From a phage, in sequence record PX104378.1: a stretch of 64,000 nt of DNA, one strand, 5' to 3'. This document shows positions 10,044 to 44,293 of this stretch, in pieces. The position numbers and the translations under genes are program-made. The stretch's first letter is position 1, and every line of letters begins with the position of its first letter. The notes under the pieces were generated by a model, which worked only from the letters and a program-made list of their open reading frames with translations, was not told the DNA's origin and did no database searches.

Positions 10044-10352
10044 ATGCACACACTTATAAAGACCAAAACTCCAGCCGTTTCCGCGTCGGTAAACTGCGTT
10101 CATAGTACGCATATGACAGTACAGATGACCGTAGAAGGTGCGCGGGAAGGGCAAAAAGTCATTGCGGAAGCCTTGTTAGAAGGTTCCTTAGATGGCAAAG
10201 GTTGGTTCACTATTTCAGAATTGAAAGCTGATGGTAATGAATATGCAACTGATGGTGGAGCGTTTGAAACATTATGGTCATTTATTAGGGCAAAAGTAAA
10301 ATCTGTTTCCAATGATTCTACTGTAACCGTGTATCTTGCTAAACGGGGGTAA
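10044..10352 (+). CDS. Hypothetical late protein
   Basis: 102 aa ORF with ATG start directly downstream of a TATAAATA late promoter. Confidence 0.6.
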   Translation: MHTLIKTKTPAVSASVNCVHSTHMTVQMTVEGAREGQKVIAEALLEGSLDGKGWFTISELKADGNEYATDGGAFETLWSFIRAKVKSVSNDSTVTVYLAKRG

Positions 10353-10359
10353 TTATTAT

Positions 10360-12090
10360 ATGAAGCTAAATCCACAAGCTATCATTAATGCTGGTTCCGT
10401 TAGTGGTGGTTGTTCTGGTGGCGGTATTCAGATCGGAACTAACGTACCTTGCGGAATTAAAAATACTCACCGTTTCGAAAATGAAGAAGCTAGGGATGAA
10501 TATTTTACCGAACATTTTCCAGAATTGGAGAGACTAAAAACAATTATTGTTTGTGGCGAAAAACTCCAATTATGGACGGGTAAAACAGCACAATCTCCCT
10601 ACGATAAATCAAAATGGGTCGATATGACCTGGGTTATTCAGGGTGAACAGGGTATTCCTGGTGAGAAGGGCGAAAATGGACGTGGTATTGCTAGGATCGA
10701 AGCGAGATTGTCCGAGGACGACCGCAACTGGACTCTAGAAGTCACGTACTCAGACGGAACACAGGAGTCTCTTGTATTTCCAGTACCAGAAGTATTAGCT
10801 AACGTTGCGCAGCGTCTATCTGCAATTGAAGTAAAATGGACTACGACGAATCCGATTAATAATCTGGATGTAACCACATCACCCGGACGCTATCCGGTAG
10901 GTGATGCAACCTATGGCAAACCTCCAATGATGGCGAATAAGGGGTCCGCAGATGTATATGTCGTTGATGGTAGCATTCTTCAAGTGGTCCGTTCTATTGA
11001 TGGTGGTGTTTACTCTCGTATCCGACACAATGGTGCATGGCGTGAGTGGAACTCTCAAAGCGGGGAAGGAAGTGGTGGCGGTGGTTTAAATGGTGATCAG
11101 GAGGCGATGTTAACCAGTTTGGGTAAACGTCTACCTGAAATTTCACCCGAAACACTGGACCTAAACACCTTGACTAAACAAGGCCGTTTCTGTTACTTTG
11201 AGGGGTCGGCAAACCGCCCAAATGGAACACAAACACATGGTTCTGTAGATGTTCATGCATGTAAAGATCATGTATTGCAGATCGCAACAAGCATTGATGG
11301 CGTAATGTATCACCGTTCCTATACAAAGAGAACTGATCGATGGACCGAATGGTTACAGATCAGCGATCACACTGGCGGTGCTACCATTTATGCATTCCCT
11401 CGTGTATCAAGCGTGTTTACTACGGCACAAAACCTGATAGAAGTAACTAACCCAGGAACAGGGAACGGTTCATTTTATATTCCGTGGAAATATGTTATTC
11501 ATGATAACTATGGATGCACACCACAAATAAAAGAGCCACAAAGACAGGAAGACGCTGATCATTGGTGGGTCGCGCCTAAATCCGGTAGCTATGATATGGA
11601 ATTGCTTTTTGATATTGGATTTATTAAAACACAACAAACAATTCCACCAATTTTCGTAGTGACCGCATGGCACAGGACCAATGAAGGAAATGAGCGTTTA
11701 GCCGCTCGTTATAATATCGGTTTTGACGTATCAACAAAAAACCAAAAAACCAAATCTCTAAAATTGAGATTGAATCAAATACCATCCGGTGAGATGTTTC
11801 GCTGGCAAGTGACGTTTAGCGGTGGTAGTTGGTCATCAAACGATAACCCAGATGTTTCACTTGTACCATTCCGCACATTGCTGATGGTCGACGAAGTAGA
11901 ACACGACACAGCAAAACGAGTTGGTGCATTGGCGTATAACACATGGGCTAACTTCCAAGCTAAAAAAGGTCTTGCTGCAACCGTAGGTGAGGATGAACTA
12001 CAAAAAGCTCGTCTTAACGCGGTTAAATGGGGTGCTATCATCGAAAGCGTTGAAGCAACTCCGCAAGAAGGCCAGCAACCAGTGCAATAA
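10360..12090 (+). CDS. Fiber-like protein with short collagen-like G-X-Y segment and repeated knob-like modules
   Basis: Start trimmed to ATG after GGGGG SD (table start is TTG); GEQGIPGEKGENGRG segment; two related modules (ILQVVRSIDGGVYSRIRHNGAWREW and HVLQIATSIDGVMYHRSYTKRTDRWTEW); G-rich linkers. Confidence 0.7.
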   Translation: MKLNPQAIINAGSVSGGCSGGGIQIGTNVPCGIKNTHRFENEEARDEYFTEHFPELERLKTIIVCGEKLQLWTGKTAQSPYDKSKWVDMTWVIQGEQGIPGEKGENGRGIARIEARLSEDDRNWTLEVTYSDGTQESLVFPVPEVLANVAQRLSAIEVKWTTTNPINNLDVTTSPGRYPVGDATYGKPPMMANKGSADVYVVDGSILQVVRSIDGGVYSRIRHNGAWREWNSQSGEGSGGGGLNGDQEAMLTSLGKRLPEISPETLDLNTLTKQGRFCYFEGSANRPNGTQTHGSVDVHACKDHVLQIATSIDGVMYHRSYTKRTDRWTEWLQISDHTGGATIYAFPRVSSVFTTAQNLIEVTNPGTGNGSFYIPWKYVIHDNYGCTPQIKEPQRQEDADHWWVAPKSGSYDMELLFDIGFIKTQQTIPPIFVVTAWHRTNEGNERLAARYNIGFDVSTKNQKTKSLKLRLNQIPSGEMFRWQVTFSGGSWSSNDNPDVSLVPFRTLLMVDEVEHDTAKRVGALAYNTWANFQAKKGLAATVGEDELQKARLNAVKWGAIIESVEATPQEGQQPVQ

Positions 12091-12107
12091 TTAGTGAGGG
12101 GTGATCG

Positions 12108-13040
12108 ATGACCGATATTAAAGCAAAGATCAGTAAGTTGCAAAATGAGTTTGTTCAAGGTGAAATTACACATTTCACTGGTAATGAGTCTAATGCTCTA
12201 ATGGAAAGTGATGTTGAAAGAATTTCAAATTCAATAAACACTCAGTTAATTGATCCTGTAATTGATTTTGTTATTGCGTGTGATGACGTAATATCAGAAA
12301 CAGCAAGTTCGGCACACCGAACGGCAGAAGTCGCAAAAAATACGGCTGATGTTGCGGATCGAACGGCAGGGCAATCCATGAGCAAAGCAACTGATGCACT
12401 GACTAAAGCGACTACCGCAGAATCGGAAGCAGCACGAGCACACAGCCGATTGGATGGTTTGAATATTCCACAATTACCAAACCTAGACAATCAAACATGG
12501 AATTGGCTATCACGTTCATTTGATAGTGTCAGTATTAAGCCAGCCGTAGGTGTGACTCTTGTCGATCCGGTAAGCGGAAAACCACACATCACATGGACAC
12601 CAATTAGACAAAACTTTGAAACTGGTCGATATTACGTGGAAGGGCGTTTTGAGGCTAGATTTAAGGTTATGCTTATGGACTGGACACAATCTTCACAAGG
12701 TGGTCATATTCATTATCTAGGCGGTGGTCAAAGTCTGGCGTCATTTAATGGACGAGTAGAACTATCTGGTTTGTCTAACGATGTAATGAAACCAACCAAC
12801 ATACAGGTCAATGCATATACGGCAAAAGATACTCAAGTAATTTTTGGTGCATGTGCTGACGCTGCGATCTCAAATTCTAATGAGATTAAATTAGCGTTCA
12901 TGGTTGATATTGGGTCGGATCGATTTGATAGATTTACAGATCCGGTTTATGTCGACCTTGTTATGACATTCCAGCGTGACGCTAGCGGTAATTTTGGTTT
13001 TGGTACGCTGTTCCCTGAATTAACCCCAAATTCTCCATAA
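12108..13040 (+). CDS. Hypothetical structural protein, N-terminal coiled coil plus C-terminal beta-rich domain
   Basis: 310 aa ORF, ATG with SD; alanine/threonine-rich helical segment. Confidence 0.65.
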   Translation: MTDIKAKISKLQNEFVQGEITHFTGNESNALMESDVERISNSINTQLIDPVIDFVIACDDVISETASSAHRTAEVAKNTADVADRTAGQSMSKATDALTKATTAESEAARAHSRLDGLNIPQLPNLDNQTWNWLSRSFDSVSIKPAVGVTLVDPVSGKPHITWTPIRQNFETGRYYVEGRFEARFKVMLMDWTQSSQGGHIHYLGGGQSLASFNGRVELSGLSNDVMKPTNIQVNAYTAKDTQVIFGACADAAISNSNEIKLAFMVDIGSDRFDRFTDPVYVDLVMTFQRDASGNFGFGTLFPELTPNSP

Positions 13041-13050
13041 GGAGGAATGC

Positions 13051-13203
13051 ATGAGTAAGAAAGAAAACAGCTATGTTATGACTCGTAAGGAATACGACGA
13101 ATTGATGTTAGCATTAGCTTATGCAATTATTCGTTCTGATCATGCAATTAATCTGGTAAACAAAGTTAACCGTAGCGTTGATAATGTTTCTAGGAAGAAG
13201 TAA
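13051..13203 (+). CDS. Small hypothetical protein (50 aa), not in ORF table
   Basis: ATG preceded by strong SD AAGGAGG; translation MSKKENSYVMTRKEYDELMLALAYAIIRSDHAINLVNKVNRSVDNVSRKK; followed by intrinsic terminator. Confidence 0.55.
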   Translation: MSKKENSYVMTRKEYDELMLALAYAIIRSDHAINLVNKVNRSVDNVSRKK

Positions 13204-13211
13204 TTTTATTT

Positions 13212-13240
13212 GGGAATCCTTCGGGATTCCCTTTTCTTTT
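13212..13240 (+). terminator. Intrinsic terminator before gp24 late promoter
   Basis: GGGAATCC-TTCG-GGATTCCC hairpin followed by T-run. Confidence 0.7.
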
Positions 13241-13242
13241 TG

Positions 13243-13250
13243 TATAAATA
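13243..13250 (+). promoter_or_regulatory. Late promoter (TATAAATA) for gp24
   Basis: Exact TATAAATA between terminator and gp24 ATG. Confidence 0.65.
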
Positions 13251-13287
13251 TGATATATCCATTAAGGCAAATACAGGATTCATAAAC

Positions 13288-14529
13288 ATGACTCATATTT
13301 TTACTGAACTGTTGCGGGAATCTACTTCCTCAGTAGCTAACCAGACAGCGCGACCGCAACTATTATCATTAACTCGCGCGGTAAACAACCTGATTTTCTC
13401 TGATCTGGTAGCAATCCAGCCAACGGATCAACCAGTATCTGCATTGTACGGCCTACGTTATCTTAATCATGATGGTCAGATGACTTTCCGAACTGCTGCA
13501 ACCTACGGTGGCGCGGTTGGTGATCGCACAGAGATCGAAGAGTTTTCAAAAGAAAAATCTTATGAAGAAGGCGCACTGTTCAAATCAGGCGATGTTGTAT
13601 ACGAAGTTGTGACCGCTGGTACAGTCGGTGAAGATGCCGCAACTCCAGAAGCTGCGATCTTTAAAGGCGTAATGACAAACAAAATTCGTTTCTATAGCGA
13701 TTGTGCATCGGTAGAATACTTTGAAGATAAAAACACCGAAATTGCGTCTACCTCTATGCAGTTTGACAAGTGGCAAGTTAATGTAGGTTCTCGTAAACTG
13801 AAAACCTCTTTCACCACTGAATTAATGCAGGATCTTGAAGCAAGCCAAATCAACTCTGAAAACTCTGTAATTGATCTTCTGGCTACTGTCGCTTCCGAAG
13901 AGATCAACAAAGATATTATACAGAAGTTGATCACTGTATCATCTCGCTATAAAATTAAAGGGATCACCCCTGATGGCGTACTTTCTCTCGTTAGCGTTCA
14001 GGATGCACCAAAACAAGCTCGCGAACTTTACCGCTATGCTTGCGAAATGAGCAATCAAATGTTGCGGACTTCCTCCTTTGCTGGCACATACGTTTTGGCG
14101 TCTTCTCGCGTGGTTGGCCTCCTGCAATCCACCGGATGGATGGAAGAAACCGACAACGCTCTAAGCGAAGGTCGTCTACGTTGCGGTCTGGAAGTGTATG
14201 CAGACACTGTAACACCTTTCGATTATATGCTCGTTGGTTGTAAGCACATGATCGGTGATATGGAGAGTGTAGGTTCTCTGTTCTACTCCCCATACACAGA
14301 AGCCGATGGTGCTGGCGCGTATAAGAGCGTAATTGACCCTAATAGTTTCCAACATCATGTGGCTATTATGAATCGTTATTCACTCTCTGTCAACCCATAC
14401 ACATCAAAAGTTGATCAGGAAGCACACCAGATCATCAAGGGTGACGATTGGGGTAAAATGGCTGGACGTTCAGAAATGTCCTACATTTTAGGAATCGAAC
14501 TGCCACCGCTTGAGATTGACAACGCTTAA
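13288..14529 (+). CDS. 24: Capsid vertex protein (gp24-like)
   Basis: Start trimmed to ATG (MTHIF) downstream of terminator and TATAAATA; N-terminus colinear with T4 gp24 as recalled (ELLRESTxx ... IQPT.QPV). Confidence 0.92.
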   Translation: MTHIFTELLRESTSSVANQTARPQLLSLTRAVNNLIFSDLVAIQPTDQPVSALYGLRYLNHDGQMTFRTAATYGGAVGDRTEIEEFSKEKSYEEGALFKSGDVVYEVVTAGTVGEDAATPEAAIFKGVMTNKIRFYSDCASVEYFEDKNTEIASTSMQFDKWQVNVGSRKLKTSFTTELMQDLEASQINSENSVIDLLATVASEEINKDIIQKLITVSSRYKIKGITPDGVLSLVSVQDAPKQARELYRYACEMSNQMLRTSSFAGTYVLASSRVVGLLQSTGWMEETDNALSEGRLRCGLEVYADTVTPFDYMLVGCKHMIGDMESVGSLFYSPYTEADGAGAYKSVIDPNSFQHHVAIMNRYSLSVNPYTSKVDQEAHQIIKGDDWGKMAGRSEMSYILGIELPPLEIDNA

Positions 14530-15117
14530 CTAAATATCTAACCAAGACAAGTCAGATCCGCCCAAGATTTTTTCGACGGCGGATCTATTTTCTTGATGAT
14601 ATAAGTTAAAACATGGTATCCCATGTCTACGGGCAACATAAACAGCAATTCGAGTTCCTCCAGAAACAATCCCATTAACTTCTTTCGCCCAAAATAACAC
14701 ACAATCTACAGGATCATCAAGTGTCTCACCTAAGACTTGAGCAACATTTCTAGAAAACAGATTTTGCATGTATAACGGTATAGAACGAGGATTATCATAA
14801 ACGTGTTCTAATTCATCCATCGCCAGATCTTTTTGTTCTAAGGTTTGCCATGCGATCACATCATGACCGTTATGCTTGTGGTCATAAAACTTCCAATTTG
14901 GAATGAAGATTTTTCTATAATCTGGATCGTAATACTTCATGAAAGCATTGTCCATACCGTAAGCCCCTCCAGAATGCGCTACAACGCGATTTTCTGACAA
15001 TACCCTCCCAATGGTACTAGCCATTATCAAAATGTCGCTAGGCGCTTTTCTAGAGCCTATTAAAGCACATCTACGAAGTGGTTTTACTCCAAATAGATCT
15101 TGTAACTGGTCAAACAT
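14530..15117 (-). CDS. Rossmann-fold DprA/Smf/LOG-like (SLOG superfamily-like) protein
   Basis: 195 aa; GSRKAPS ... VVAHSGGAYGMDNAF resembles the DprA/SLOG nucleotide-binding motif; family assignment from motif only. Confidence 0.55.
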   Translation of the reverse strand: MFDQLQDLFGVKPLRRCALIGSRKAPSDILIMASTIGRVLSENRVVAHSGGAYGMDNAFMKYYDPDYRKIFIPNWKFYDHKHNGHDVIAWQTLEQKDLAMDELEHVYDNPRSIPLYMQNLFSRNVAQVLGETLDDPVDCVLFWAKEVNGIVSGGTRIAVYVARRHGIPCFNLYHQENRSAVEKILGGSDLSWLDI

Positions 15118-15500
15118 AATATTTCCTCCATAGAAAGCAATATCATACTACAAGTTAATAACAAATACAAGTATCCGCGTAGCGGAAGCGAGCACAGCGA
15201 GCAATAAAACACTTCCAGTAATTGATTAATAAATGTTCGAAACAAATTTTTATTATTCTATAAGATAAGTCTTCGTTTTGATCATAATTTAATCATACAT
15301 GTAAAAACTACACAAAAGGATATCGCTTCGCGAACTCCTACGGAGTATAACATTTGTGTTACAATATGTATTGATTAATAATTAATCAAAGATACATTTT
15401 CTATGTTCTAAAGATCTTTCTTCGTTTTGATCATAATTTAATCAAACAGTATTAATATTGTGCACATGTAAACTAAAATTATGTCAATAATAGATACGAA

Positions 15501-15528
15501 AAAGCCGCCCCAAAGGACGGCTAATGTT
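15501..15528 (-). terminator. Intrinsic terminator after 15531..15968
   Basis: Minus-strand hairpin GCCGTCC-TTTG-GGGCGGC followed by T-run. Confidence 0.6.
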
Positions 15529-15530
15529 AA

Positions 15531-15968
15531 TTATTTGTTGATAACGATCTGATTTCGGCGAATGGTAACATTACTCTTAGGGATGATCAGATCATCCGGC
15601 ACTACGTTAGTTTTGTATGGCTGGAAGCGAACAAGCATCTGATTGCGTTTAGATCCTTCCTTAATCTTGATTTCCATCTGGATATTGTTGCCTACGTGAG
15701 CAACCGCAATTTCACCTTTATTCTCATAGACCCACTTGCTGGTAACGTCGCCAGCGAAAGCCTTAATAACTTGCAATGCTTCGTCGTATGCGGTAGAGCT
15801 GTGAACGTTCAGAAGACCAGCCGTCGCCAGACGTGAGCAAGTGATCGCCGGAGATTGCCAAACATCAACATTAATTTGCTCAATCAGAGTAACACCGCCC
15901 TGATCAACTGCTTTGAATGCTTCGAACATTGCTTTTTTCATTGCTACGTGGTTTTTACGGAATTTCAT
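15531..15968 (-). CDS. Hypothetical protein
   Basis: 145 aa ORF; ATG with SD AGGTGA; intrinsic terminator downstream. Confidence 0.6.
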   Translation of the reverse strand: MKFRKNHVAMKKAMFEAFKAVDQGGVTLIEQINVDVWQSPAITCSRLATAGLLNVHSSTAYDEALQVIKAFAGDVTSKWVYENKGEIAVAHVGNNIQMEIKIKEGSKRNQMLVRFQPYKTNVVPDDLIIPKSNVTIRRNQIVINK

Positions 15969-16014
15969 AATTAGTCACCTCTATTGATTAGTTATTCAGA
16001 ATATTAATTACAAA

Positions 16015-16290
16015 TTAGGACATTGCCCGTTTGAATGCGTCCATTATAACAGTGTTATTTGGCTTGTCAACACGTTTTTGAACTTTATTTTTAAATTTTT
16101 TGTTGATGTGGTGTTTACGATAAACAACCTTTTCACGGTTGGCGTAAGCCTCTCGTGCATCTTTTACCATCAACCATGCCTTAGCCGCATCTTGTCCGCT
16201 GATCCCGCCAATCTTTTTAGCAATATCAACAAAATTAAGACCGTGGTCTTCGCGTAGCATGTAAACCATTAACGCTGTTTTCTTGTCCAT
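16015..16290 (-). CDS. Hypothetical basic protein, possible helix-turn-helix
   Basis: Start trimmed to ATG (MDKKTAL); its ATG overlaps the stop of the upstream 65-aa gene by 1 nt. Confidence 0.5.
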   Translation of the reverse strand: MDKKTALMVYMLREDHGLNFVDIAKKIGGISGQDAAKAWLMVKDAREAYANREKVVYRKHHINKKFKNKVQKRVDKPNNTVIMDAFKRAMS

Positions 16291-16607: not shown

Positions 16608-16635
16608 ATTATAAGCCACTAAATCACACTGTCAA
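16608..16635 (-). promoter_or_regulatory. Sigma70-like early promoter (TTGACA-N16-TATAAT)
   Basis: Minus strand TTGACA ... TATAAT upstream of the 16290..16487 gene; coords +/-2. Confidence 0.5.
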
Positions 16636-16644
16636 GCACTAAAA

Positions 16645-16672
16645 ACAAAAAAGCCACCCCGAAGGATGGCTG
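16645..16672 (-). terminator. Intrinsic terminator after hoc
   Basis: Minus-strand hairpin GCCATCC-TTCG-GGGTGGC followed by TTTTTTG. Confidence 0.55.
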
Positions 16673-16682
16673 ATAGATTTCA

Positions 16683-17909
16683 TTAAGCAGGAGGCGTTTC
16701 ACGAATGCGTAGAACTCTCTCTAACGTCTCTCGGTCCAGCTTGTGGAACTCTTTGGACTGATACATGAAACCATTGCGAGATTCCATGCAAGTGCAATCA
16801 CTATATTTTTCTTCCGCTGCCGCGATTGTCTCCAGATCTTTGGCGTACTTGCTGGTTGAATAAACTTCTCGGTGACGCCACTCTAAACCAGCCTCATTGA
16901 ATTTAACAATCTCGTCAAATACCCACCATCCAATATAGATGAATGAAGTTTTGCGCCACGGGATCGGGTGCACGTAACGGAACATTTTATGAAGAGATTC
17001 AACAACTTCCATTGAACACTTTCTGCTTGTACGTGCTGCAAGTTCTACTGTTGCGTCTTCGATCTGTTGATATAGTTTAGCAACACACCAGAATTTGGCT
17101 GTATCATCGTAAGTAGCACGCTCTTTGAACAGATGACCGTCTGGCATGATAGAAAATCCTTCCAGTGCTTCTCCGACCTCACTACCGATTAGAGTCGGTG
17201 ACGGTTGCCCTTCGCGCTGCAAATACCAGTTATGTTTGATCGACAATTTAGGCATACCGCTAGAATCGCCTACAATGTCCTCTGACACAACATAATTAAG
17301 TAAGATCTCCTTACCTAGTGCTACGGTCTTTGATTCCACCACATCCTGTTCTACGCTCATTGTTGCCAGCATGATTTTAGTTGATGCGCTATCGGCTGAA
17401 TCTTCCGATTCGCCCCATACTTTGACAGTATACACGCCGTTGTTATCTGCTGTAAATTCTTGGATCGTGATATCCTGTGTCGTGTCTATAACTTCTTCGC
17501 CCTTGCTCCAGCTATAGTGCAATTCATAGTTGTCTGCTGGAGTCTTCCCACCAGAAAATTTTACTGTTGCATGTAATTCTACGTCTGTTTGTGTTGGTAC
17601 GTAGAATTGCGGCGGTTCGGTGATCTTAACGATTAATTCAGCTTCTTCCATACGGAAAACGTCAGATTCTACAGATTCCCCGCTATCGGTATCTTGTACA
17701 GTGACTTTATAGTTACCCGCATTTTCACTTGTTGCACCTGCTACGGTTAGCGTAGCTGTGTTATTTTCGTGTGGTTTGTTGTCTTTTGTCCATGTATAGG
17801 TCAAATTGCTGGGTAATGGTTCGTCACCTGCTATAGTCGCTGTTAAGGTGAAACCATCTCCAGCAAGAAAACATCTTTTGTTAGATTTAATTGATACTGT
17901 GAAAGCCAT
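16683..17909 (-). CDS. hoc: Hoc-like outer capsid protein, Ig-like repeats plus capsid-binding C-terminal domain
   Basis: Start set at MAFTV (T4 Hoc begins M.FTV); C-terminal YVHPIPWRKTSFIYIGWWVFDEI matches T4 Hoc capsid-binding region as recalled. Confidence 0.85.
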   Translation of the reverse strand: MAFTVSIKSNKRCFLAGDGFTLTATIAGDEPLPSNLTYTWTKDNKPHENNTATLTVAGATSENAGNYKVTVQDTDSGESVESDVFRMEEAELIVKITEPPQFYVPTQTDVELHATVKFSGGKTPADNYELHYSWSKGEEVIDTTQDITIQEFTADNNGVYTVKVWGESEDSADSASTKIMLATMSVEQDVVESKTVALGKEILLNYVVSEDIVGDSSGMPKLSIKHNWYLQREGQPSPTLIGSEVGEALEGFSIMPDGHLFKERATYDDTAKFWCVAKLYQQIEDATVELAARTSRKCSMEVVESLHKMFRYVHPIPWRKTSFIYIGWWVFDEIVKFNEAGLEWRHREVYSTSKYAKDLETIAAAEEKYSDCTCMESRNGFMYQSKEFHKLDRETLERVLRIRETPPA

Positions 17910-17922
17910 ATAAAGCCACTCC

Positions 17923-17948
17923 ATAGAAAAGCCGACCCGAAGGTCGGC
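17923..17948 (-). terminator. Intrinsic terminator after the large Hoc paralog
   Basis: Minus-strand hairpin GCCGACC-TTCG-GGTCGGC followed by T-run. Confidence 0.6.
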
Positions 17949-17958
17949 ATTTAATTAA

Positions 17959-20499
17959 TTAAAATAGTTGAGTACCATCGACCAGATAACCATTACGAGA
18001 TTCCAATACATGAGTATTAGAATAGTGATGCAACGAGGCTGCAATAGTCTCGATCTCGTCTGGGTATTTGGTGTGTTCAAAGTCTTCTAACCAGTTAAGC
18101 CCTTCGCGGTTGCAACGATCAATTTCATCAAGTACCCAATAGCCTTGATACTGGAACGAAGTACGACGCCACGGAATCGGGTGTACATAGCGTTTTAATT
18201 TCGCGGTAGTAAACACCACACGAACTTTTTCACTATGTTTAACATGTCCTTCGTCGTCAGTAATTTCTGCATAATAGGTTGCTTGATGTGCATTCTTGCT
18301 AATTCGATCTTGCGGGATAGTATATACCCTATCATTAGCACCTTCAATAACAGTATCCTTACCGCCCTGAATTTTATGCCATTTCCATTGAACTTCTTTT
18401 TCATCATCAACGTGTTCGGCATGAGCTTCTAAGGTAATATCCTGTTTCTGCCCTTCTTTAGCAACCACATCCACCGGATGTTTCAGAATATTGATATTTG
18501 AATGATGAGTCATTGTCACTAATGCAGGATTAGATTCAATGGTATTCTCACCAGCCGTAATTACCGCTGTGTAGCTGCCTACGTCAGACGGTTTTGCGTG
18601 TTCAATGATCAATACATCTGAATTTGCGCCAGGAATAATCTCACCGTCTTTTTTCCATTGATATGATGGTTTAATACCAATAGATGTTTGTGCGGCAGCG
18701 TGTAACATAATTTTTTCATTATATTTCACATGCGCATCTTGTGGGTGAGTTGTGACCTCTAGGTCATTTGGAACAACCGTCACATCGTCGGAGATCAGCA
18801 CACGAACAGCATCCGACATTTTAGAAACTCGATGTTCACCGAATCCAGCCGATACACGGCATGTATAAACGCCAGTAGATGTTAATTGTGCATGGTCTTC
18901 GCCATATACGTTTCGTTGTTCAATTCCTGCCGGGAAAAGATCCACACCATCTTTAAACCAACGGTAGCGAACTGGCAAAGCATCATTAGACGTTGCTGTG
19001 ATGGTCAGCGCCCACTGTCCACCTGAACGAACTTTAACTGCTTTCGGTTGCACAGTGATTTCAAGATTTGCTCTTGAGTTGTCTACCGTCACCTGAACTT
19101 CGTTAGATTCCTTAGAAATACGATGATTCTGTATACCCATAGAAACCTTACATTTATAACGTCCTTCGTCAGATTTGGCGATTGAAGAGAAATGTAATGT
19201 TTTCGAAGTTTTTCCTGGTAACAATTCATCGTCTTTATACCACTGATAATCAAGTTTATAATGCTCATAGGTAGTTTCTGCCTCACAAATTAAAGTTTGT
19301 GAAGAACTAACGCGAACGTTATTGATTGCTTGTGGTTGTTTTGTGATTCTAATTTCAGGAGCGGCACCAACTAAAAGATCGGCCTCGTCCGATTCCGCAA
19401 CCTGATTATCACCGTAAGTCACCTTAGCCTTATATTTCGCCTGACTTAAATCTTGCGTGGCAGGGACAATGTGAAGATCTTTATTAGTTGCGCCAACAAT
19501 TGGTTTAAATTCATCTTCACCATTTTTCTTGATGTACCATTGAACTTTTACCGGTTCGTAGTTGGTTGCAAAATCAACACTGAACAAACCTAAAGCACCC
19601 GCACCCACATTTAACGGTTGTGGTTGTTTAGTGAAGCGGAAAAACGCTCGTCCTTGTATTGTAACATGACAATCTTTTGAATAGATCGTAGTTTCTGCTT
19701 GACGAACTTCAAGACGCCAGACACCCTCATCTTTTTTTGTAACATGCGGTATAATCAGTGCGGTCCCGTCTTGATCCAGTACCATCCTGTCATTATGAAT
19801 CCACACGTAAGACAATGGTCGCGTTTTGTCGTCGGTTGTGACAGACACTTCAAGATCCAATCGCGTGTCCTCTGCCACTGTAACCGCTGATGGGTAATGT
19901 TCCTGAATATGAACTTTAGGAGCATCTTTATTTTGTTCCACTACTACCGGACTGATCCAATAGTGAGAACGTGCATCATCGGTAACAAATACCTTACAAG
20001 TATAGTTACCAAAATCCTCATAACCAACTCGATCTACATGGACATTTTTTTCTCTAACTTTATTAGGATCTAACTGAATATGGTTTTTATACCAAATAGT
20101 ATCAAACTCTTTATCATCTTCGATGAACGGAGTAACAAAAATATCCAATTCTTCGCCTAAACGCTTATAAATGTAGGTAGGAGATTGATCATGTGGTGCA
20201 AGGAAGGTGCGACGTTCAACAAGAATAGGCTTAATATCAACCGATTCAAGCGGATTATCTTTCAGCTTAACTTTCGCTGTATATGTTCCGAATTGATCTT
20301 GAGTCATTTCAGCAATATACAGAGATTGATCTGGTTCTGCAACCTGATCTGATGGTACGCTTTGACCGTTTAGCTTCCATTCTACGATATAGTCTTTAAA
20401 ATCTGCGGTACTTACTACGAGCTTAAGAACAAGTTCATGTCCTACAGACGCGTAGACCGGACCCATAGTTTGATGTAAAATATTGATTTTATCAGACAT
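17959..20499 (-). CDS. Large Hoc paralog (846 aa) with about eight Ig-like repeats and Hoc capsid-binding C-terminus
   Basis: Repeated ~90-aa units with W..Y/C-x-A motifs; C-terminus YVHPIPWRRTSFQYQGYWVLDEI paralogous to adjacent hoc. Confidence 0.8.
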   Translation of the reverse strand: MSDKINILHQTMGPVYASVGHELVLKLVVSTADFKDYIVEWKLNGQSVPSDQVAEPDQSLYIAEMTQDQFGTYTAKVKLKDNPLESVDIKPILVERRTFLAPHDQSPTYIYKRLGEELDIFVTPFIEDDKEFDTIWYKNHIQLDPNKVREKNVHVDRVGYEDFGNYTCKVFVTDDARSHYWISPVVVEQNKDAPKVHIQEHYPSAVTVAEDTRLDLEVSVTTDDKTRPLSYVWIHNDRMVLDQDGTALIIPHVTKKDEGVWRLEVRQAETTIYSKDCHVTIQGRAFFRFTKQPQPLNVGAGALGLFSVDFATNYEPVKVQWYIKKNGEDEFKPIVGATNKDLHIVPATQDLSQAKYKAKVTYGDNQVAESDEADLLVGAAPEIRITKQPQAINNVRVSSSQTLICEAETTYEHYKLDYQWYKDDELLPGKTSKTLHFSSIAKSDEGRYKCKVSMGIQNHRISKESNEVQVTVDNSRANLEITVQPKAVKVRSGGQWALTITATSNDALPVRYRWFKDGVDLFPAGIEQRNVYGEDHAQLTSTGVYTCRVSAGFGEHRVSKMSDAVRVLISDDVTVVPNDLEVTTHPQDAHVKYNEKIMLHAAAQTSIGIKPSYQWKKDGEIIPGANSDVLIIEHAKPSDVGSYTAVITAGENTIESNPALVTMTHHSNINILKHPVDVVAKEGQKQDITLEAHAEHVDDEKEVQWKWHKIQGGKDTVIEGANDRVYTIPQDRISKNAHQATYYAEITDDEGHVKHSEKVRVVFTTAKLKRYVHPIPWRRTSFQYQGYWVLDEIDRCNREGLNWLEDFEHTKYPDEIETIAASLHHYSNTHVLESRNGYLVDGTQLF

Positions 20500-41861: not shown

Positions 41862-42338
41862 TTATTTTTCTTGATGCTCGCGCTCGTACTTTTCGAAATA
41901 AAATTCTACTGGCTGGTCGTGGATTGACAGTAAGCCAAAGCGTTTAGCCGCTCGCAACCCCATATTGCGCTGAATGTACTTCTGGAAGTTCTCGCGTATA
42001 CACTTACGCCAGTATTCTAAGCCCATACAGCTTTTATAAAGATTGCATTGCACACACGCCGGATTCATGTTATCAAGTATATCATGCTCCGGTTTATGCA
42101 TTCCTACAACCTTATACTTCCACGATCCATCATCATTACGGGCAATTCGTCCATTTTCATCATAGACTACTTTTGAGCGTCGTAATACTGGTTTGATGTG
42201 GTCTGCGTGCCAGCGATCCCCTAGTTCCTCGCCACAATAGGCACAACGTCCACCATATTTCATTTTCAGGATCTGGCGTTGCTCTTTCTTTGACAATTTT
42301 TTAGGTTTAGGGGCTTTCGCCCCTTCATTATCACACAT
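41862..42338 (-). CDS. HNH endonuclease
   Basis: 158 aa; CAYCGEEL ... HADHIKPV ... CVQCNLYK; 8-nt overlap with DNA ligase stop. Confidence 0.75.
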   Translation of the reverse strand: MCDNEGAKAPKPKKLSKKEQRQILKMKYGGRCAYCGEELGDRWHADHIKPVLRRSKVVYDENGRIARNDDGSWKYKVVGMHKPEHDILDNMNPACVQCNLYKSCMGLEYWRKCIRENFQKYIQRNMGLRAAKRFGLLSIHDQPVEFYFEKYEREHQEK

Positions 42339-43833
42339 CGAATACCTCTTTTACTGTATTTGCAGTGGTCTTGTCGTAGCGAATACGTTTGATGATCGGG
42401 AGAAATAAAGAGAACTCCGGTTCATCTTCTTTACGTGATTTGCTGCGGATATACCCGTTGCATGTCATCTCAATGACTTTTCCAATCAGGTTATGACGGT
42501 CAGCCCATAACATTTCTCGGTCAAGTTCATTTCGACGATCGAACGGAATTACACGTTCGATACCATCATCACCTTTTTCGGTTGTAGTGTCGGTTAATCC
42601 CGATCCGGTGTTAGTCATCATTCGTCCACACGCACTACGGACAGTAAAACCGCCTACCTTATTGGGGTCTTTACTATGCGGATATACATCAACAATTTCC
42701 GCGTCGAAGTCAATCACTTCTTTAAATTTAACCTGATCTTTACTACGGCGATCTTCAAATACACCATGCAGATTTTTAAGGATAATACCTTCTAAGCCCA
42801 TGTTTACATAGCGATGATATACTTCGCGAGCTTCATCGATATTGTTAACTACAGTATTTTCGATTATCTGAACACGAGGATCGTTAAGTTCTTCAACAAT
42901 CTGTTTTAGTTCTTCGAATCGATCTTTATATTGCTTCGTTGCTCTCTCGTTTCCGTAATACACATCACGGTCGATAACATCCCAGACAGTGTAAACAATA
43001 CATTGGGCTTCTTCTTTTGGAATAGTTCCTTTCAGTGATTTGTTGAGGATACCATTTCCGGTCTGACGATCCGCAACAACGGATTCTTTTACTGCTTCCG
43101 CTACTGGCGTTAATGGTATTTCCTCTTCTTCAAATATCCATGACAGAGTACCATCATAAACGCTCTCAACGAAGTTCTGCGCTGGTGTTTGCGAAAGGGT
43201 AGGCATATATACCAATTCGCCATCTAGAACAATTCCACGGCCTCGTAGACGCTCTAAAACAGAAAACAAATCATCCAGCCCCTGGTAGGTATTACCTGAA
43301 CGGGTATAGATTGCTAATGTTTCCCCGTCAATATCAGCCATACCACGAGCGCCATCACTTTTAAGCTGTGCATATGCCGGATATTTGATATTAGCAATAG
43401 CCTTATCAGAATATGACGATGCAAGGTGGCATGGTTGCTGGGGGATCAGTTTCTTCCATACCTTGTTTGCAGTGGTAGCGGAACAACCGCATTCCAGATC
43501 ACGATTCAGGACCATCATTGCAACTTTAGCATCATCTTCTGACAAGCAAGTCAGAGTATCGGTAACTAGCTGTAATGCTGCATTACCAGTTACTTGACGC
43601 GTGGCAAGTTTATTTTTAAAGACCTGCAATGCACCGGATAAAGACAATACAGACGAATAGCGCGATGGTTTATCGTATTTCTTTACGCCAAACGTAACCT
43701 GTTTGCAATATGCCAGATAAAAGCATTCTTTCAGCGTTTCATTGCTTGCAGATTCTTTCAGGATCTTTTCTTTCAGCGATGTTTTGTCGGTCGCTGCAAG
43801 CTGGTTAATGATATTAAGAATTGACATTTTCAC
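42331..43833 (-). CDS. 30: ATP-dependent DNA ligase (gp30-like)
   Basis: 500 aa vs T4 487 aa; adenylation motif KSDGAR (KxDGxR); N-terminus colinear with T4 gp30 as recalled. Confidence 0.9.
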   Translation of the reverse strand: MKMSILNIINQLAATDKTSLKEKILKESASNETLKECFYLAYCKQVTFGVKKYDKPSRYSSVLSLSGALQVFKNKLATRQVTGNAALQLVTDTLTCLSEDDAKVAMMVLNRDLECGCSATTANKVWKKLIPQQPCHLASSYSDKAIANIKYPAYAQLKSDGARGMADIDGETLAIYTRSGNTYQGLDDLFSVLERLRGRGIVLDGELVYMPTLSQTPAQNFVESVYDGTLSWIFEEEEIPLTPVAEAVKESVVADRQTGNGILNKSLKGTIPKEEAQCIVYTVWDVIDRDVYYGNERATKQYKDRFEELKQIVEELNDPRVQIIENTVVNNIDEAREVYHRYVNMGLEGIILKNLHGVFEDRRSKDQVKFKEVIDFDAEIVDVYPHSKDPNKVGGFTVRSACGRMMTNTGSGLTDTTTEKGDDGIERVIPFDRRNELDREMLWADRHNLIGKVIEMTCNGYIRSKSRKEDEPEFSLFLPIIKRIRYDKTTANTVKEVFDV

Positions 43834-44293
43834 CTCGTTTTGTTAAACGTTCACGAATATCATTGAGGATACTACAAAATTCCGATTCGGTCAATATGGT
43901 CTTTAACGGATCAGTTCCACCTATGCTATGACGCAATTTCTTATTTCCGGTAGCGAGTAATGCTTTACAAAATTCTGGGTTATTCCGTGCCATCGTAACA
44001 AATGCCAGATGTACCAGTCTGTAATAATGCTCACTCATTCTATGAATCGGGCGACCCTGAAAATATAGCATGTGATTCTCTATCTTTTCAGCCCTTCCGG
44101 TTCTTTTTGCTTTGCCACCGTGCATCAAAAAGATTTCTCTTTGTCTCTGAGGGTTCTTAAATCTTAGCCCCTGTAAAAATCCTTCTGTGCTGTTAATATC
44201 GCAACCAAATAGACGGAATGGTCTTTTATTGAAATTACTCAATTCACCCGATGGATAAGGTCCACCCGCATAGATATCAATTTCAGAAGTCAT
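43814..44293 (-). CDS. NADAR (YbiA-like) domain protein
   Basis: 159 aa; GELSNF..PF..G..FLQGLRF pattern typical of NADAR/DUF1768 N-glycosidase fold. Confidence 0.6.
   Translation of the reverse strand: MTSEIDIYAGGPYPSGELSNFNKRPFRLFGCDINSTEGFLQGLRFKNPQRQREIFLMHGGKAKRTGRAEKIENHMLYFQGRPIHRMSEHYYRLVHLAFVTMARNNPEFCKALLATGNKKLRHSIGGTDPLKTILTESEFCSILNDIRERLTKRGENVNS

What the first reader, a model, noticed from the sequence alone, without database searches (positions are those of the whole stretch)
14530..15117. DprA/SLOG-like Rossmann protein after gp24
The 195-aa protein has GSRKAPS followed by VVAHSGGAYGMDNAF, resembling the nucleotide-binding signature of DprA/Smf and LOG-like (SLOG) proteins. 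It does not match the T4 gene I would expect here (rnlB). SLOG-type domains in phages have been linked to nucleotide or NAD-derived signalling and DNA processing.
Basis: partly seen in the sequence, partly recalled or inferred. Interest (0 to 1): 0.45.

Follow-up and report, generated by a model that had tools for sequence, protein, structure and literature searches.

The report
Phage DprA-like SLOG nucleotide-binding protein
This is a real, strongly conserved phage gene for a small DprA-like (SLOG-fold) nucleotide-binding protein that public annotation already names as such; its function has never been tested, and relatives often sit beside or are fused to ADP-ribose-removing enzymes and nucleic-acid ligases.

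Summary
The ORF is real: window 14530-15117, on the minus strand, 195 aa, with both quoted motifs. It abuts and converges on gp24. dN/dS is 0.06-0.12. It is present in all 59 Krischvirus (RB49/JSE-like) records, and RefSeq already names it "DprA-like DNA recombination-mediator protein" (PHROG 768, E=2e-60).

Relatives are fused to NADAR, Macro, DUF4326 or RecJ. In 18 of 43 lineages they lie within 2.5 kb of such genes, Nampt, Rnl2 or NAD-dependent DNA ligase.

Best reading (about 0.4): a non-catalytic module that binds single-stranded nucleic acid or a nucleotide and assists ADP-ribose removal or nick repair, rather than loading RecA. Main rival (about 0.3): a binder or processor of soluble ADP-ribose derivatives. 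The finding is already known and of modest interest.

The parts
14530..15117 (-). CDS of the 195-aa DprA-like SLOG protein (single domain)
15125..15129 (-). Shine-Dalgarno GGAGG, 7 nt upstream of the ATG at 15117-15115
   Evidence: Read directly from the sequence.
15040..15066 (-). Motif I, ALIGSRKAP (aa 18-26). R23 corresponds to the gate arginine R52 of H. pylori DprA.
   Evidence: G21 is invariant and R23 and P26 are at least 90% conserved in 135 relatives. Mapping by hhalign and chain numbering. Role of R52 from PMC3950713.
14941..14973 (-). Motif II, SGGAYGMDNAF (aa 49-59), the DprA-type SGxAxGxD loop. D56 is the only conserved acidic residue.
   Evidence: The same motif is invariant in the DprA/ShosA alignment A3.
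14728..14760 (-). Motif III, LFSRNVAQVLG (aa 120-130). R123-N124 correspond to HpDprA R143-N144, which hold the inserted base. Q127 is family-specific.
   Evidence: R123 in 134/135, N124 in 129/135, Q127 in 131/135. hhalign mapping. PMC3950713.
14632..14664 (-). Motif IV, SGGTRIAVYVA (aa 152-162). G153 corresponds to HpDprA G164. The position of the LOG catalytic Glu is A158.
   Evidence: G153, G154 and T155 each in 134/135, A158 in 127/135. Local alignment to the E. coli PpnN motif PGGVGTAEE.
15118..15530 (-). 413-nt non-coding leader upstream of the gene. It holds two 79-nt direct repeats (15221-15299 and 15370-15448) and a TTGATTAATTATTAATCAA palindrome. No sigma-70-like site of at least 9/12 lies on the coding strand.
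   Evidence: No meaningful Rfam match. JSE annotates no CDS here.
15503..15522 (-). Terminator-like GC hairpin plus T-run that ends the upstream gene (ORF 15531-15968). Transcription of the SLOG gene probably reads through it (inferred).
13288..14529 (+). gp24 capsid-vertex gene, the convergent neighbour. The probable true start is ATG 13288, with the late promoter TATAAATA at 13243-13250.
   Evidence: Pfam Gp23 family E=4.6e-88. The length matches JSE gp24, 1242 nt. Late-promoter motif.
43814..44293 (-). gp30.3-family (NADAR-related) gene beside the DNA ligase gene. It is the only member of the family's usual partner classes found in this window. It is context, not a shown partner.
   Evidence: PF08010 E=2.2e-38. 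Weak tblastn match to the NADAR part of a NADAR-SLOG fusion. ORFs.

Best explanation
The gene encodes a stand-alone, single-domain SLOG Rossmannoid protein of the DprA branch. It keeps the DprA pocket that grips one nucleotide: R23 as gate and phosphate contact, and R123, N124 and G153 around the base. It has no conserved residues that would add catalysis. I therefore infer a non-catalytic binding module that holds single-stranded nucleic acid, or a nucleotide unit on it, by inserting one base into this pocket. It is probably made early in infection. It most likely serves as an accessory to nucleic-acid repair and counter-defence enzymes, namely ADP-ribose-removing NADAR or Macro enzymes and nick-sealing ligases, by finding or holding their substrate. 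It probably does not load a recombinase as bacterial DprA does. Shown here: the fold, pocket conservation, purifying selection, and the family-wide fusions and neighbourhoods. Inferred: nucleic-acid binding, lack of catalysis, early timing, and the repair or counter-defence role.
Against: Nothing was measured: there is no binding or activity data for any member in the papers searched. Similarity to DprA is remote, with TM about 0.5, about 130 of 195 residues superposed, and Pfam below threshold. The equivalents of HpDprA K137 and F140 are only partly conserved: position 118 is K or R in 56% of relatives but Q in this protein. The protein is mildly acidic, with pI 6.1 and net charge -3. It lacks the SAM and C-terminal domains, and its dimer interface could not be assessed. 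The HpDprA core needs 15-20 nt or more for measurable ssDNA binding (Table 1) and binds as a dimer. Nampt or Prs-like NAD-salvage neighbours in 4 lineages fit a small-molecule ligand better. In this window the gene has none of the partner genes nearby; the gp30.3 gene is 29 kb away. No single partner is universal: 25 of 43 lineages have none within 2.5 kb.
Confidence: 0.4

Rival explanations
1. It binds, or hydrolyses, a soluble NAD+/ADP-ribose-derived molecule such as a cADPR isomer, ADPR or Appr>p. It would blunt host NAD-based immune signalling or feed NAD+ salvage, as Iyer et al. predicted for viral SLOG domains.
Against: The motif set is DprA-type, not YpsA, YAcAr or LOG type. No conserved catalytic residue exists beyond those of non-enzymatic DprA. 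The ligase and RecJ links point to nucleic acid. NADAR and Macro enzymes also act on ADP-ribosylated DNA, so the fusions do not discriminate.
Confidence: 0.3
2. It is a true recombination mediator, as the database name says: it binds ssDNA and loads UvsX or host RecA.
For: Homology to DprA and pocket conservation. RefSeq and PHROG name it so. uvsW and uvsY lie 4-6 kb away in JSE. PMC7824862 suggested that phage DprA/Smf could be an extra ssDNA-binding protein.
Against: It fails TIGR00732 (14 bits against a cutoff of 191) and the Pfam threshold. It has no SAM or C-terminal domain. These phages already encode the mediator UvsY. No recombinase gene appears among the recurrent neighbours.
Confidence: 0.12
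3. It is an orphan antitoxin mimic. It would replace the unstable DprA-like antitoxins ShosA or PsyrA and so disarm the ShosTA or PsyrTA abortive-infection systems.
Against: The matches cover only the shared N-terminal motif of about 45 aa. It is no closer to ShosA than to DprA. It lacks the SAM domain that ShosA needs for stability, and ShosA also needs dimerisation and RecA binding. No PRTase toxin turned up among the recurrent neighbours in 20 bacterial loci, though only the 25 commonest families were listed.
Confidence: 0.06
4. It is a LOG or PpnN-like phosphoribohydrolase that cleaves the N-glycosidic bond of nucleoside monophosphates.
Against: hhalign against PpnN gives E=0.48. None of 135 relatives hits the Pfam LOG model. 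The position of the catalytic Glu is a near-invariant Ala, and no other conserved Glu exists.
Confidence: 0.05

Closest known systems
Bacterial DprA/Smf Rossmann-fold core (H. pylori DprA 4LJR/4LJK, R. palustris 3MAJ, S. pneumoniae 3UQZ)
   Same: It has the same SLOG Rossmannoid core. It shares the motif set GSR / SGxAxGxD / RN / (S/G)G. The one-nucleotide pocket residues are conserved.
   Different: Identity is only about 20% and TM about 0.5, and it scores below the Pfam and TIGRFAM thresholds. It has no SAM or C-terminal winged-helix domain. It carries a family-specific insert at about aa 60-115 and family-specific invariant residues Q127, T155 and N171. It occurs in lytic phages that already have UvsY.
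PHROG 768 phage 'DprA-like DNA recombination-mediator protein' (e.g. JSE YP_002922241.1)
   Same: This is the family the gene belongs to. The match is full-length at E=2.3e-60, with 97-99.5% identity to annotated Krischvirus genes.
   Different: There is no difference. The family name is a homology label, and no member was found to have been tested.
ShosA / PsyrA DprA-like antitoxins of the ShosTA and PsyrTA defence systems (8ZVA)
   Same: It shares the DprA-type core and the conserved arginines that ShosA needs for ssDNA binding.
   Different: ShosA has a SAM domain, an extra C-terminal helix, a dimer interface, RecA binding and a PRTase toxin partner. None of these was found here.
Viral SLOG domains linked to Macro, NADAR and DUF4326 (Iyer et al. 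2022, PMC9503650) and YAcAr (PF10686)
   Same: It has the same kinds of fusion partners and neighbourhoods and the same superfamily.
   Different: That paper places most viral SLOGs in the YpsA-like clade. This family matches DprA models, not YpsA or YAcAr models. Two giant proteins carry this domain alongside YAcAr and LDcluster4 domains as separate modules.
LOG / PpnN nucleotide phosphoribohydrolases and the ThsA SLOG sensor
   Different: It has no catalytic Glu and no significant profile similarity. It is not fused to SIR2 or another effector.

Membership tests
SLOG superfamily (Rossmannoid; DprA, LOG, MCP, YpsA, ThsA-SLOG) | A three-layer alpha/beta Rossmannoid fold whose closest structures are SLOG members | tested here: met
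SLOG superfamily (Rossmannoid; DprA, LOG, MCP, YpsA, ThsA-SLOG) | Gly-rich or polar loops after strands 1 and 2, and a GG(T) motif at the start of a later helix | tested here: met
   GSR, SGGAxGxD and GGT are at least 90% conserved in 135 relatives.
PHROG 768 (phage DprA-like proteins) | A significant full-length match to the family profile | tested here: met
   E=2.3e-60, aa 15-187 against profile positions 4-181 of 191.
DprA/Smf (Pfam PF02481, TIGR00732) | A score above the curated family thresholds | tested here: not met
   PF02481 scores 22.3 bits against a cutoff of 29.6 and matches only aa 15-60. TIGR00732 scores 14.3 bits against a cutoff of 191.
DprA/Smf (Pfam PF02481, TIGR00732) | The conserved nucleotide or ssDNA pocket (HpDprA R52, R143, N144, G164) | tested here: met
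   The equivalents R23, R123, N124 and G153 are each conserved in at least 95% of 135 relatives.
DprA/Smf (Pfam PF02481, TIGR00732) | Accessory domains: an N-terminal SAM domain and/or a C-terminal winged-helix (DML1) domain | tested here: not met
   The protein is 195 aa and the model shows one domain. The alignment to DprA spans aa 15-174.
DprA/Smf (Pfam PF02481, TIGR00732) | Dimerisation, ssDNA binding and RecA loading | not testable with these tools
   This needs biochemistry or multimer modelling. The monomer-only predictor could not address it.
LOG / PpnN phosphoribohydrolases | The PGGxGTxxE motif with the catalytic Glu, and profile similarity | tested here: not met
   hhalign gives E=0.48, and the Glu position is A158 (127/135 Ala) or the variable residue 160. 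None of 135 relatives hits the LOG Pfam model.
ShosA / PsyrA antitoxins | A full-length match to the PADLOC models and an adjacent PRTase-type toxin gene | tested here: not met
   Only aa 15-61 match, at E=4e-5 and 4e-4. The neighbours here are gp24 and an ORF with no Pfam hit. No PRTase appears among the 25 commonest neighbour families in 20 bacterial loci.
Viral ADP-ribose-linked SLOG domains (Iyer et al. 2022) | Fusion to, or operon with, Macro, NADAR or DUF4326 | tested here: inconclusive
   This is met for the family: fusions, and 12 of 43 lineages with such genes or Nampt within 2.5 kb. It is not met for this gene, whose only such gene in the window (gp30.3) is 29 kb away.

The most novel reading that the evidence does not exclude
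The family, present in more than 1,200 sequenced phages, could be an unrecognised class of counter-defence protein. One possibility is a reader that recognises ADP-ribosylated or adenylated nucleic-acid lesions and hands them to NADAR or Macro enzymes or to ligases. Another is a sponge for ADP-ribose-derived immune signals. The conserved Rnl2-SLOG gene pair would then also give the first functional clue to the long-unexplained T4-type RNA ligase 2.
Probability: 0.25. Interest if true: 0.65.

Novelty: already known. Interest (0 to 1): 0.3.

Why it matters
The gene and its DprA/SLOG assignment are already in public annotation, so the finding adds no new kind of element. It matters only as a pointer. 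The family is very widespread in phages and under strong purifying selection, and nobody has tested it. The database name "recombination mediator" is probably misleading. The family's repeated coupling to ADP-ribose-removing enzymes, NAD-salvage genes, RNA ligase 2 and NAD-dependent DNA ligase makes it a cheap, well-defined target for binding assays and phage knockouts against DarTG, Thoeris and NAD-depleting defences.

Tried and rejected
1. pI and net charge, as a test for DNA binding, were uninformative. True DprA cores range from pI 5.7 to 9.2, the family median is 8.4, and the query is 6.1.

2. The LOG-type enzyme reading is rejected.

3. The ShosA/PsyrA antitoxin-mimic reading is weakly supported only by the shared N-terminal motif. 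No toxin partner was found.

4. A search for one universal partner gene found none. BLAST clustering and a Pfam scan of the +/-2 neighbours in 43 lineages show only minority associations.

5. A first greedy gene-caller missed overlapping genes, for example the NADAR gene in Stubb. I replaced it with HMM searches over all ORFs.

6. A promoter scan of the 413-nt leader found no sigma-70-like site of at least 9/12 on the coding strand and no TATAAATA late promoter. Expression timing therefore remains inferred.

7. An Rfam scan of the leader gave only a chance-level match.

8. No remnant of rnlB, and no Nampt or DUF4326 gene, is in the window. The rest of the genome was not checked.

9. The Aeromonas PX29 389-aa upstream protein is not detectably Rnl2.

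10. The AFDB fold library was unavailable.

11. The NARP1, NARP3 and RyR-domain papers do not mention this family.

Full report
**Observation**

Window 14530-15117 holds an ATG-initiated ORF of 195 aa on the minus strand. A GGAGG ribosome-binding site lies 7 nt upstream of the ATG. The gene converges on gp24, a Gp23-family protein (E=4.6e-88), and the two stop codons abut.

The window is a Krischvirus, the RB49/JSE group of T4-like coliphages. It is 97-98.5% identical in nucleotides to phages Brandy, JEP8 and JSE. The gene is present in all 59 Krischvirus records of the phage collection. Against four orthologues dN/dS is 0.06-0.12, so it is a real gene under strong purifying selection.

**What is already on record**

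PHROG 768, "DprA-like DNA recombination-mediator protein", matches over the full length at E=2.3e-60. RefSeq already gives that name to the JSE and KFS-EC orthologues.

The family is very common in phages. tblastn finds it in 1272 phage records, including T4-like, T5-like, N4-like and rV5-like phages and Pakpunavirus. An exhaustive profile search finds 4343 cluster representatives, mostly stand-alone proteins of 165-200 aa. It is rare on plasmids, with 23 records. A pattern-limited scan of bacterial genomes found 20 loci.

**Fold and family placement**

With a 33-sequence alignment, AlphaFold2 gives pLDDT 94.2 and pTM 0.89.
- Foldseek ranks H. pylori DprA first at E=1.6e-5 with TM about 0.5.
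- In the viral structure library the same fold recurs at TM 0.73-0.80 in many phage proteins.

Sequence profiles separate the SLOG clades.
- hhalign of the family against five DprA/ShosA cores gives E=4.3e-5 over 143 columns.
- Against the LOG-family enzyme PpnN it gives E=0.48.
- Of 135 diverse relatives, 90 give weak hits to Pfam DprA and 18 to SLOG cluster 4. None hits LOG, YpsA or YAcAr.

The query fails the curated thresholds of Pfam DprA (22.3 against 29.6 bits) and TIGR00732 (14 against 191 bits). It consists of the core domain alone. It is therefore a distinct family next to DprA, not a DprA orthologue.

**The pocket**

In the H. pylori DprA-ssDNA structure one thymine inserts into the most conserved pocket. 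Y108, R143, N144 and G164 hold it there and R52 acts as a gate. The R52E and R143E mutations reduce ssDNA affinity 315-fold and 173-fold (PMC3950713).

Chain numbering and the profile alignment give these equivalents: R52 = R23, R143-N144 = R123-N124, and G164 = G153. In 135 relatives these residues are present in 132, 134, 129 and 134 sequences.

The only conserved acidic residue is D56, and DprA shares it. The position of the LOG catalytic Glu is a near-invariant Ala. I infer a binding module rather than a LOG-type hydrolase. The equivalents of HpDprA K137 and F140 are only partly kept: position 118 is K or R in 56% of relatives but Q in this protein.

**Context**

In this window the gene has no informative neighbour.
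- Upstream lie a 413-nt non-coding stretch with two 79-nt repeats, then a 145-aa ORF with no Pfam match (its only strong match is PHROG 15652, function unknown), a 24.3-like gene and hoc.
- T4 has rnlB in the same slot.
- Several other T4-like genera have both genes, with Rnl2 overlapping the start of the SLOG gene. In one genus the pair lies next to gp24 and in another it lies elsewhere in the genome.
- T5-like phages have the order SLOG, LigA half, NADAR, LigB half.
- Pakpunavirus has Prs-like, Nampt-like and Macro genes upstream of it.

Fusion partners among relatives are as follows.
- NADAR occurs in five of the 150 best representatives. Two of these are proteins of about 1,480 aa that also carry YAcAr and LDcluster4 SLOG domains.
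- DUF4326 and RecJ are also fused.
- Macro is fused in two plasmid copies.

I analysed 88 loci falling into 43 lineages at 60% identity.
- NADAR, Macro, DUF4326 or Nampt lie within 2.5 kb in 12 lineages.
- Rnl2 or NAD-dependent ligase lie within 2.5 kb in 8 lineages.
- The union is 18 lineages.
- Of the 17 NAD/ADP-ribose co-occurrences inside the +/-8 kb windows, 16 lie within 2.5 kb and all are on the same strand (P=1e-7).

No partner is universal. Copies in bacterial genomes sit in mobile-element regions with integrases, a relaxase, SSB and RdgC, and one lies beside Gad1. NADAR and DUF4326 recur there and no PRTase toxin appears among the recurrent neighbours. The window itself has a gp30.3-family (NADAR-related) gene beside the DNA ligase gene, 29 kb away.

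**Literature**

- Iyer et al. 2021 noted phage DprA/Smf as a possible extra ssDNA-binding protein.
- Iyer et al. 2022 predicted that viral SLOG domains fused to Macro, NADAR or DUF4326 act on ADP-ribose derivatives, and stated that this is untested.
- ShosA, the antitoxin of the ShosTA defence system, is a DprA-like ssDNA and RecA binder.
- I found no experiment on any phage member.

**Interpretation**

Homology and pocket conservation argue for binding a nucleotide unit in the DprA manner. The absence of extra catalytic residues argues against an enzyme.

The partners are NADAR and Macro (de-ADP-ribosylation, including of DNA bases), RecJ, Rnl2 and LigA. These share nucleic-acid substrates, which favours a nucleic-acid-binding accessory role in repair or counter-defence (confidence about 0.4).

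The NAD-salvage neighbours and the ThsA precedent keep a soluble ADP-ribose-ligand role alive (about 0.3). A classical recombination-mediator role is less likely (about 0.12). The protein lacks DprA's accessory domains, these phages encode UvsY, and no recombinase gene recurs nearby. The antitoxin-mimic and LOG-enzyme readings are minor (about 0.06 and 0.05).

**Verdict**

The gene is an ordinary, already annotated member of a known but functionally untested phage family. Interest is modest.

Noticed in passing
window 10336-13203 (+): Two sizeable ORFs lie between the gp23 region and gp24: a 584-aa ORF with a collagen-like GEQGIPGEKGENGRG stretch, and a 310-aa ORF with an alanine-zipper, tail-fibre-like coiled coil. 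A 50-aa ORF follows them. JSE has only two tiny ORFs there. The full insert occurs in only 5 of 59 Krischvirus records (Brandy, SSG23, SFHK24, UPWr_E1, G2248). They could be fibre-like head or decoration proteins.
   Followed up: partly
window 17959-20499 (-) and 16683-17924 (-): A second Hoc-like protein of 846 aa with many Ig-like repeats sits next to the ordinary 413-aa hoc. Both end in the same motif, RYVHPIPWR(K/R)TSF.Y.GWWV.DEI. The large paralogue is full-length in only 4 of 59 Krischvirus records.
   Followed up: partly
window 15118-15530: The 413-nt non-coding gap upstream of the SLOG gene holds two 79-nt direct repeats (15221-15299 and 15370-15448, 73% identical) and a perfect palindrome, TTGATTAATTATTAATCAA. 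A related 15-mer recurs at 15982-15996, just upstream of the next gene. There is no meaningful Rfam match and no clear promoter. It may be a regulatory or mobile cassette remnant.
   Followed up: partly
window 16608-16671 and 16043-16070 (-); hairpins 16652-16671 and 15503-15522 (-): Two perfect TTGACA-16-TATAAT promoters lie on the minus strand, the first just downstream of a GC-hairpin terminator-like site at 16671-16652. A second such hairpin (15522-15503) ends the next gene downstream. From memory of the RB49-group literature, this layout resembles the promoter-early stem-loop (PeSL) cassettes described for those phages; I did not check that paper here.
   Followed up: no
window 13210-13290 (+): The mechanical gp24 ORF (TTG at 13210, 439 aa) is over-extended. 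ATG 13288 gives 1242 nt, the length of JSE gp24. The late-promoter motif TATAAATA at 13243-13250 lies 38 nt upstream of that ATG.
   Followed up: yes
window 43814-44293 (-) and 42331-43833 (-): A gp30.3-family (PF08010, NADAR-related) gene overlaps the start of the DNA ligase gene. The same ligase-NADAR pairing appears in T5-like phages, where a NADAR gene sits between the two halves of the split NAD-dependent ligase.
   Followed up: partly
L003:2497-4052, L004:2438-4052 (also L023, L027): In several T4-like genera the RNA ligase 2 gene overlaps the start of the SLOG gene by 1-11 nt, which suggests translational coupling. The pair sits in two different genome contexts. T4 keeps only rnlB and Krischvirus keeps only the SLOG gene in that slot. 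This could be a clue to the unknown in vivo role of Rnl2.
   Followed up: partly
window 14527-14532: gp24 (+) and the SLOG gene (-) converge with abutting stop codons and no intergenic terminator. Klebsiella phage Mexia has an annotated terminator between the same two genes. Convergent transcripts would therefore overlap here.
   Followed up: no
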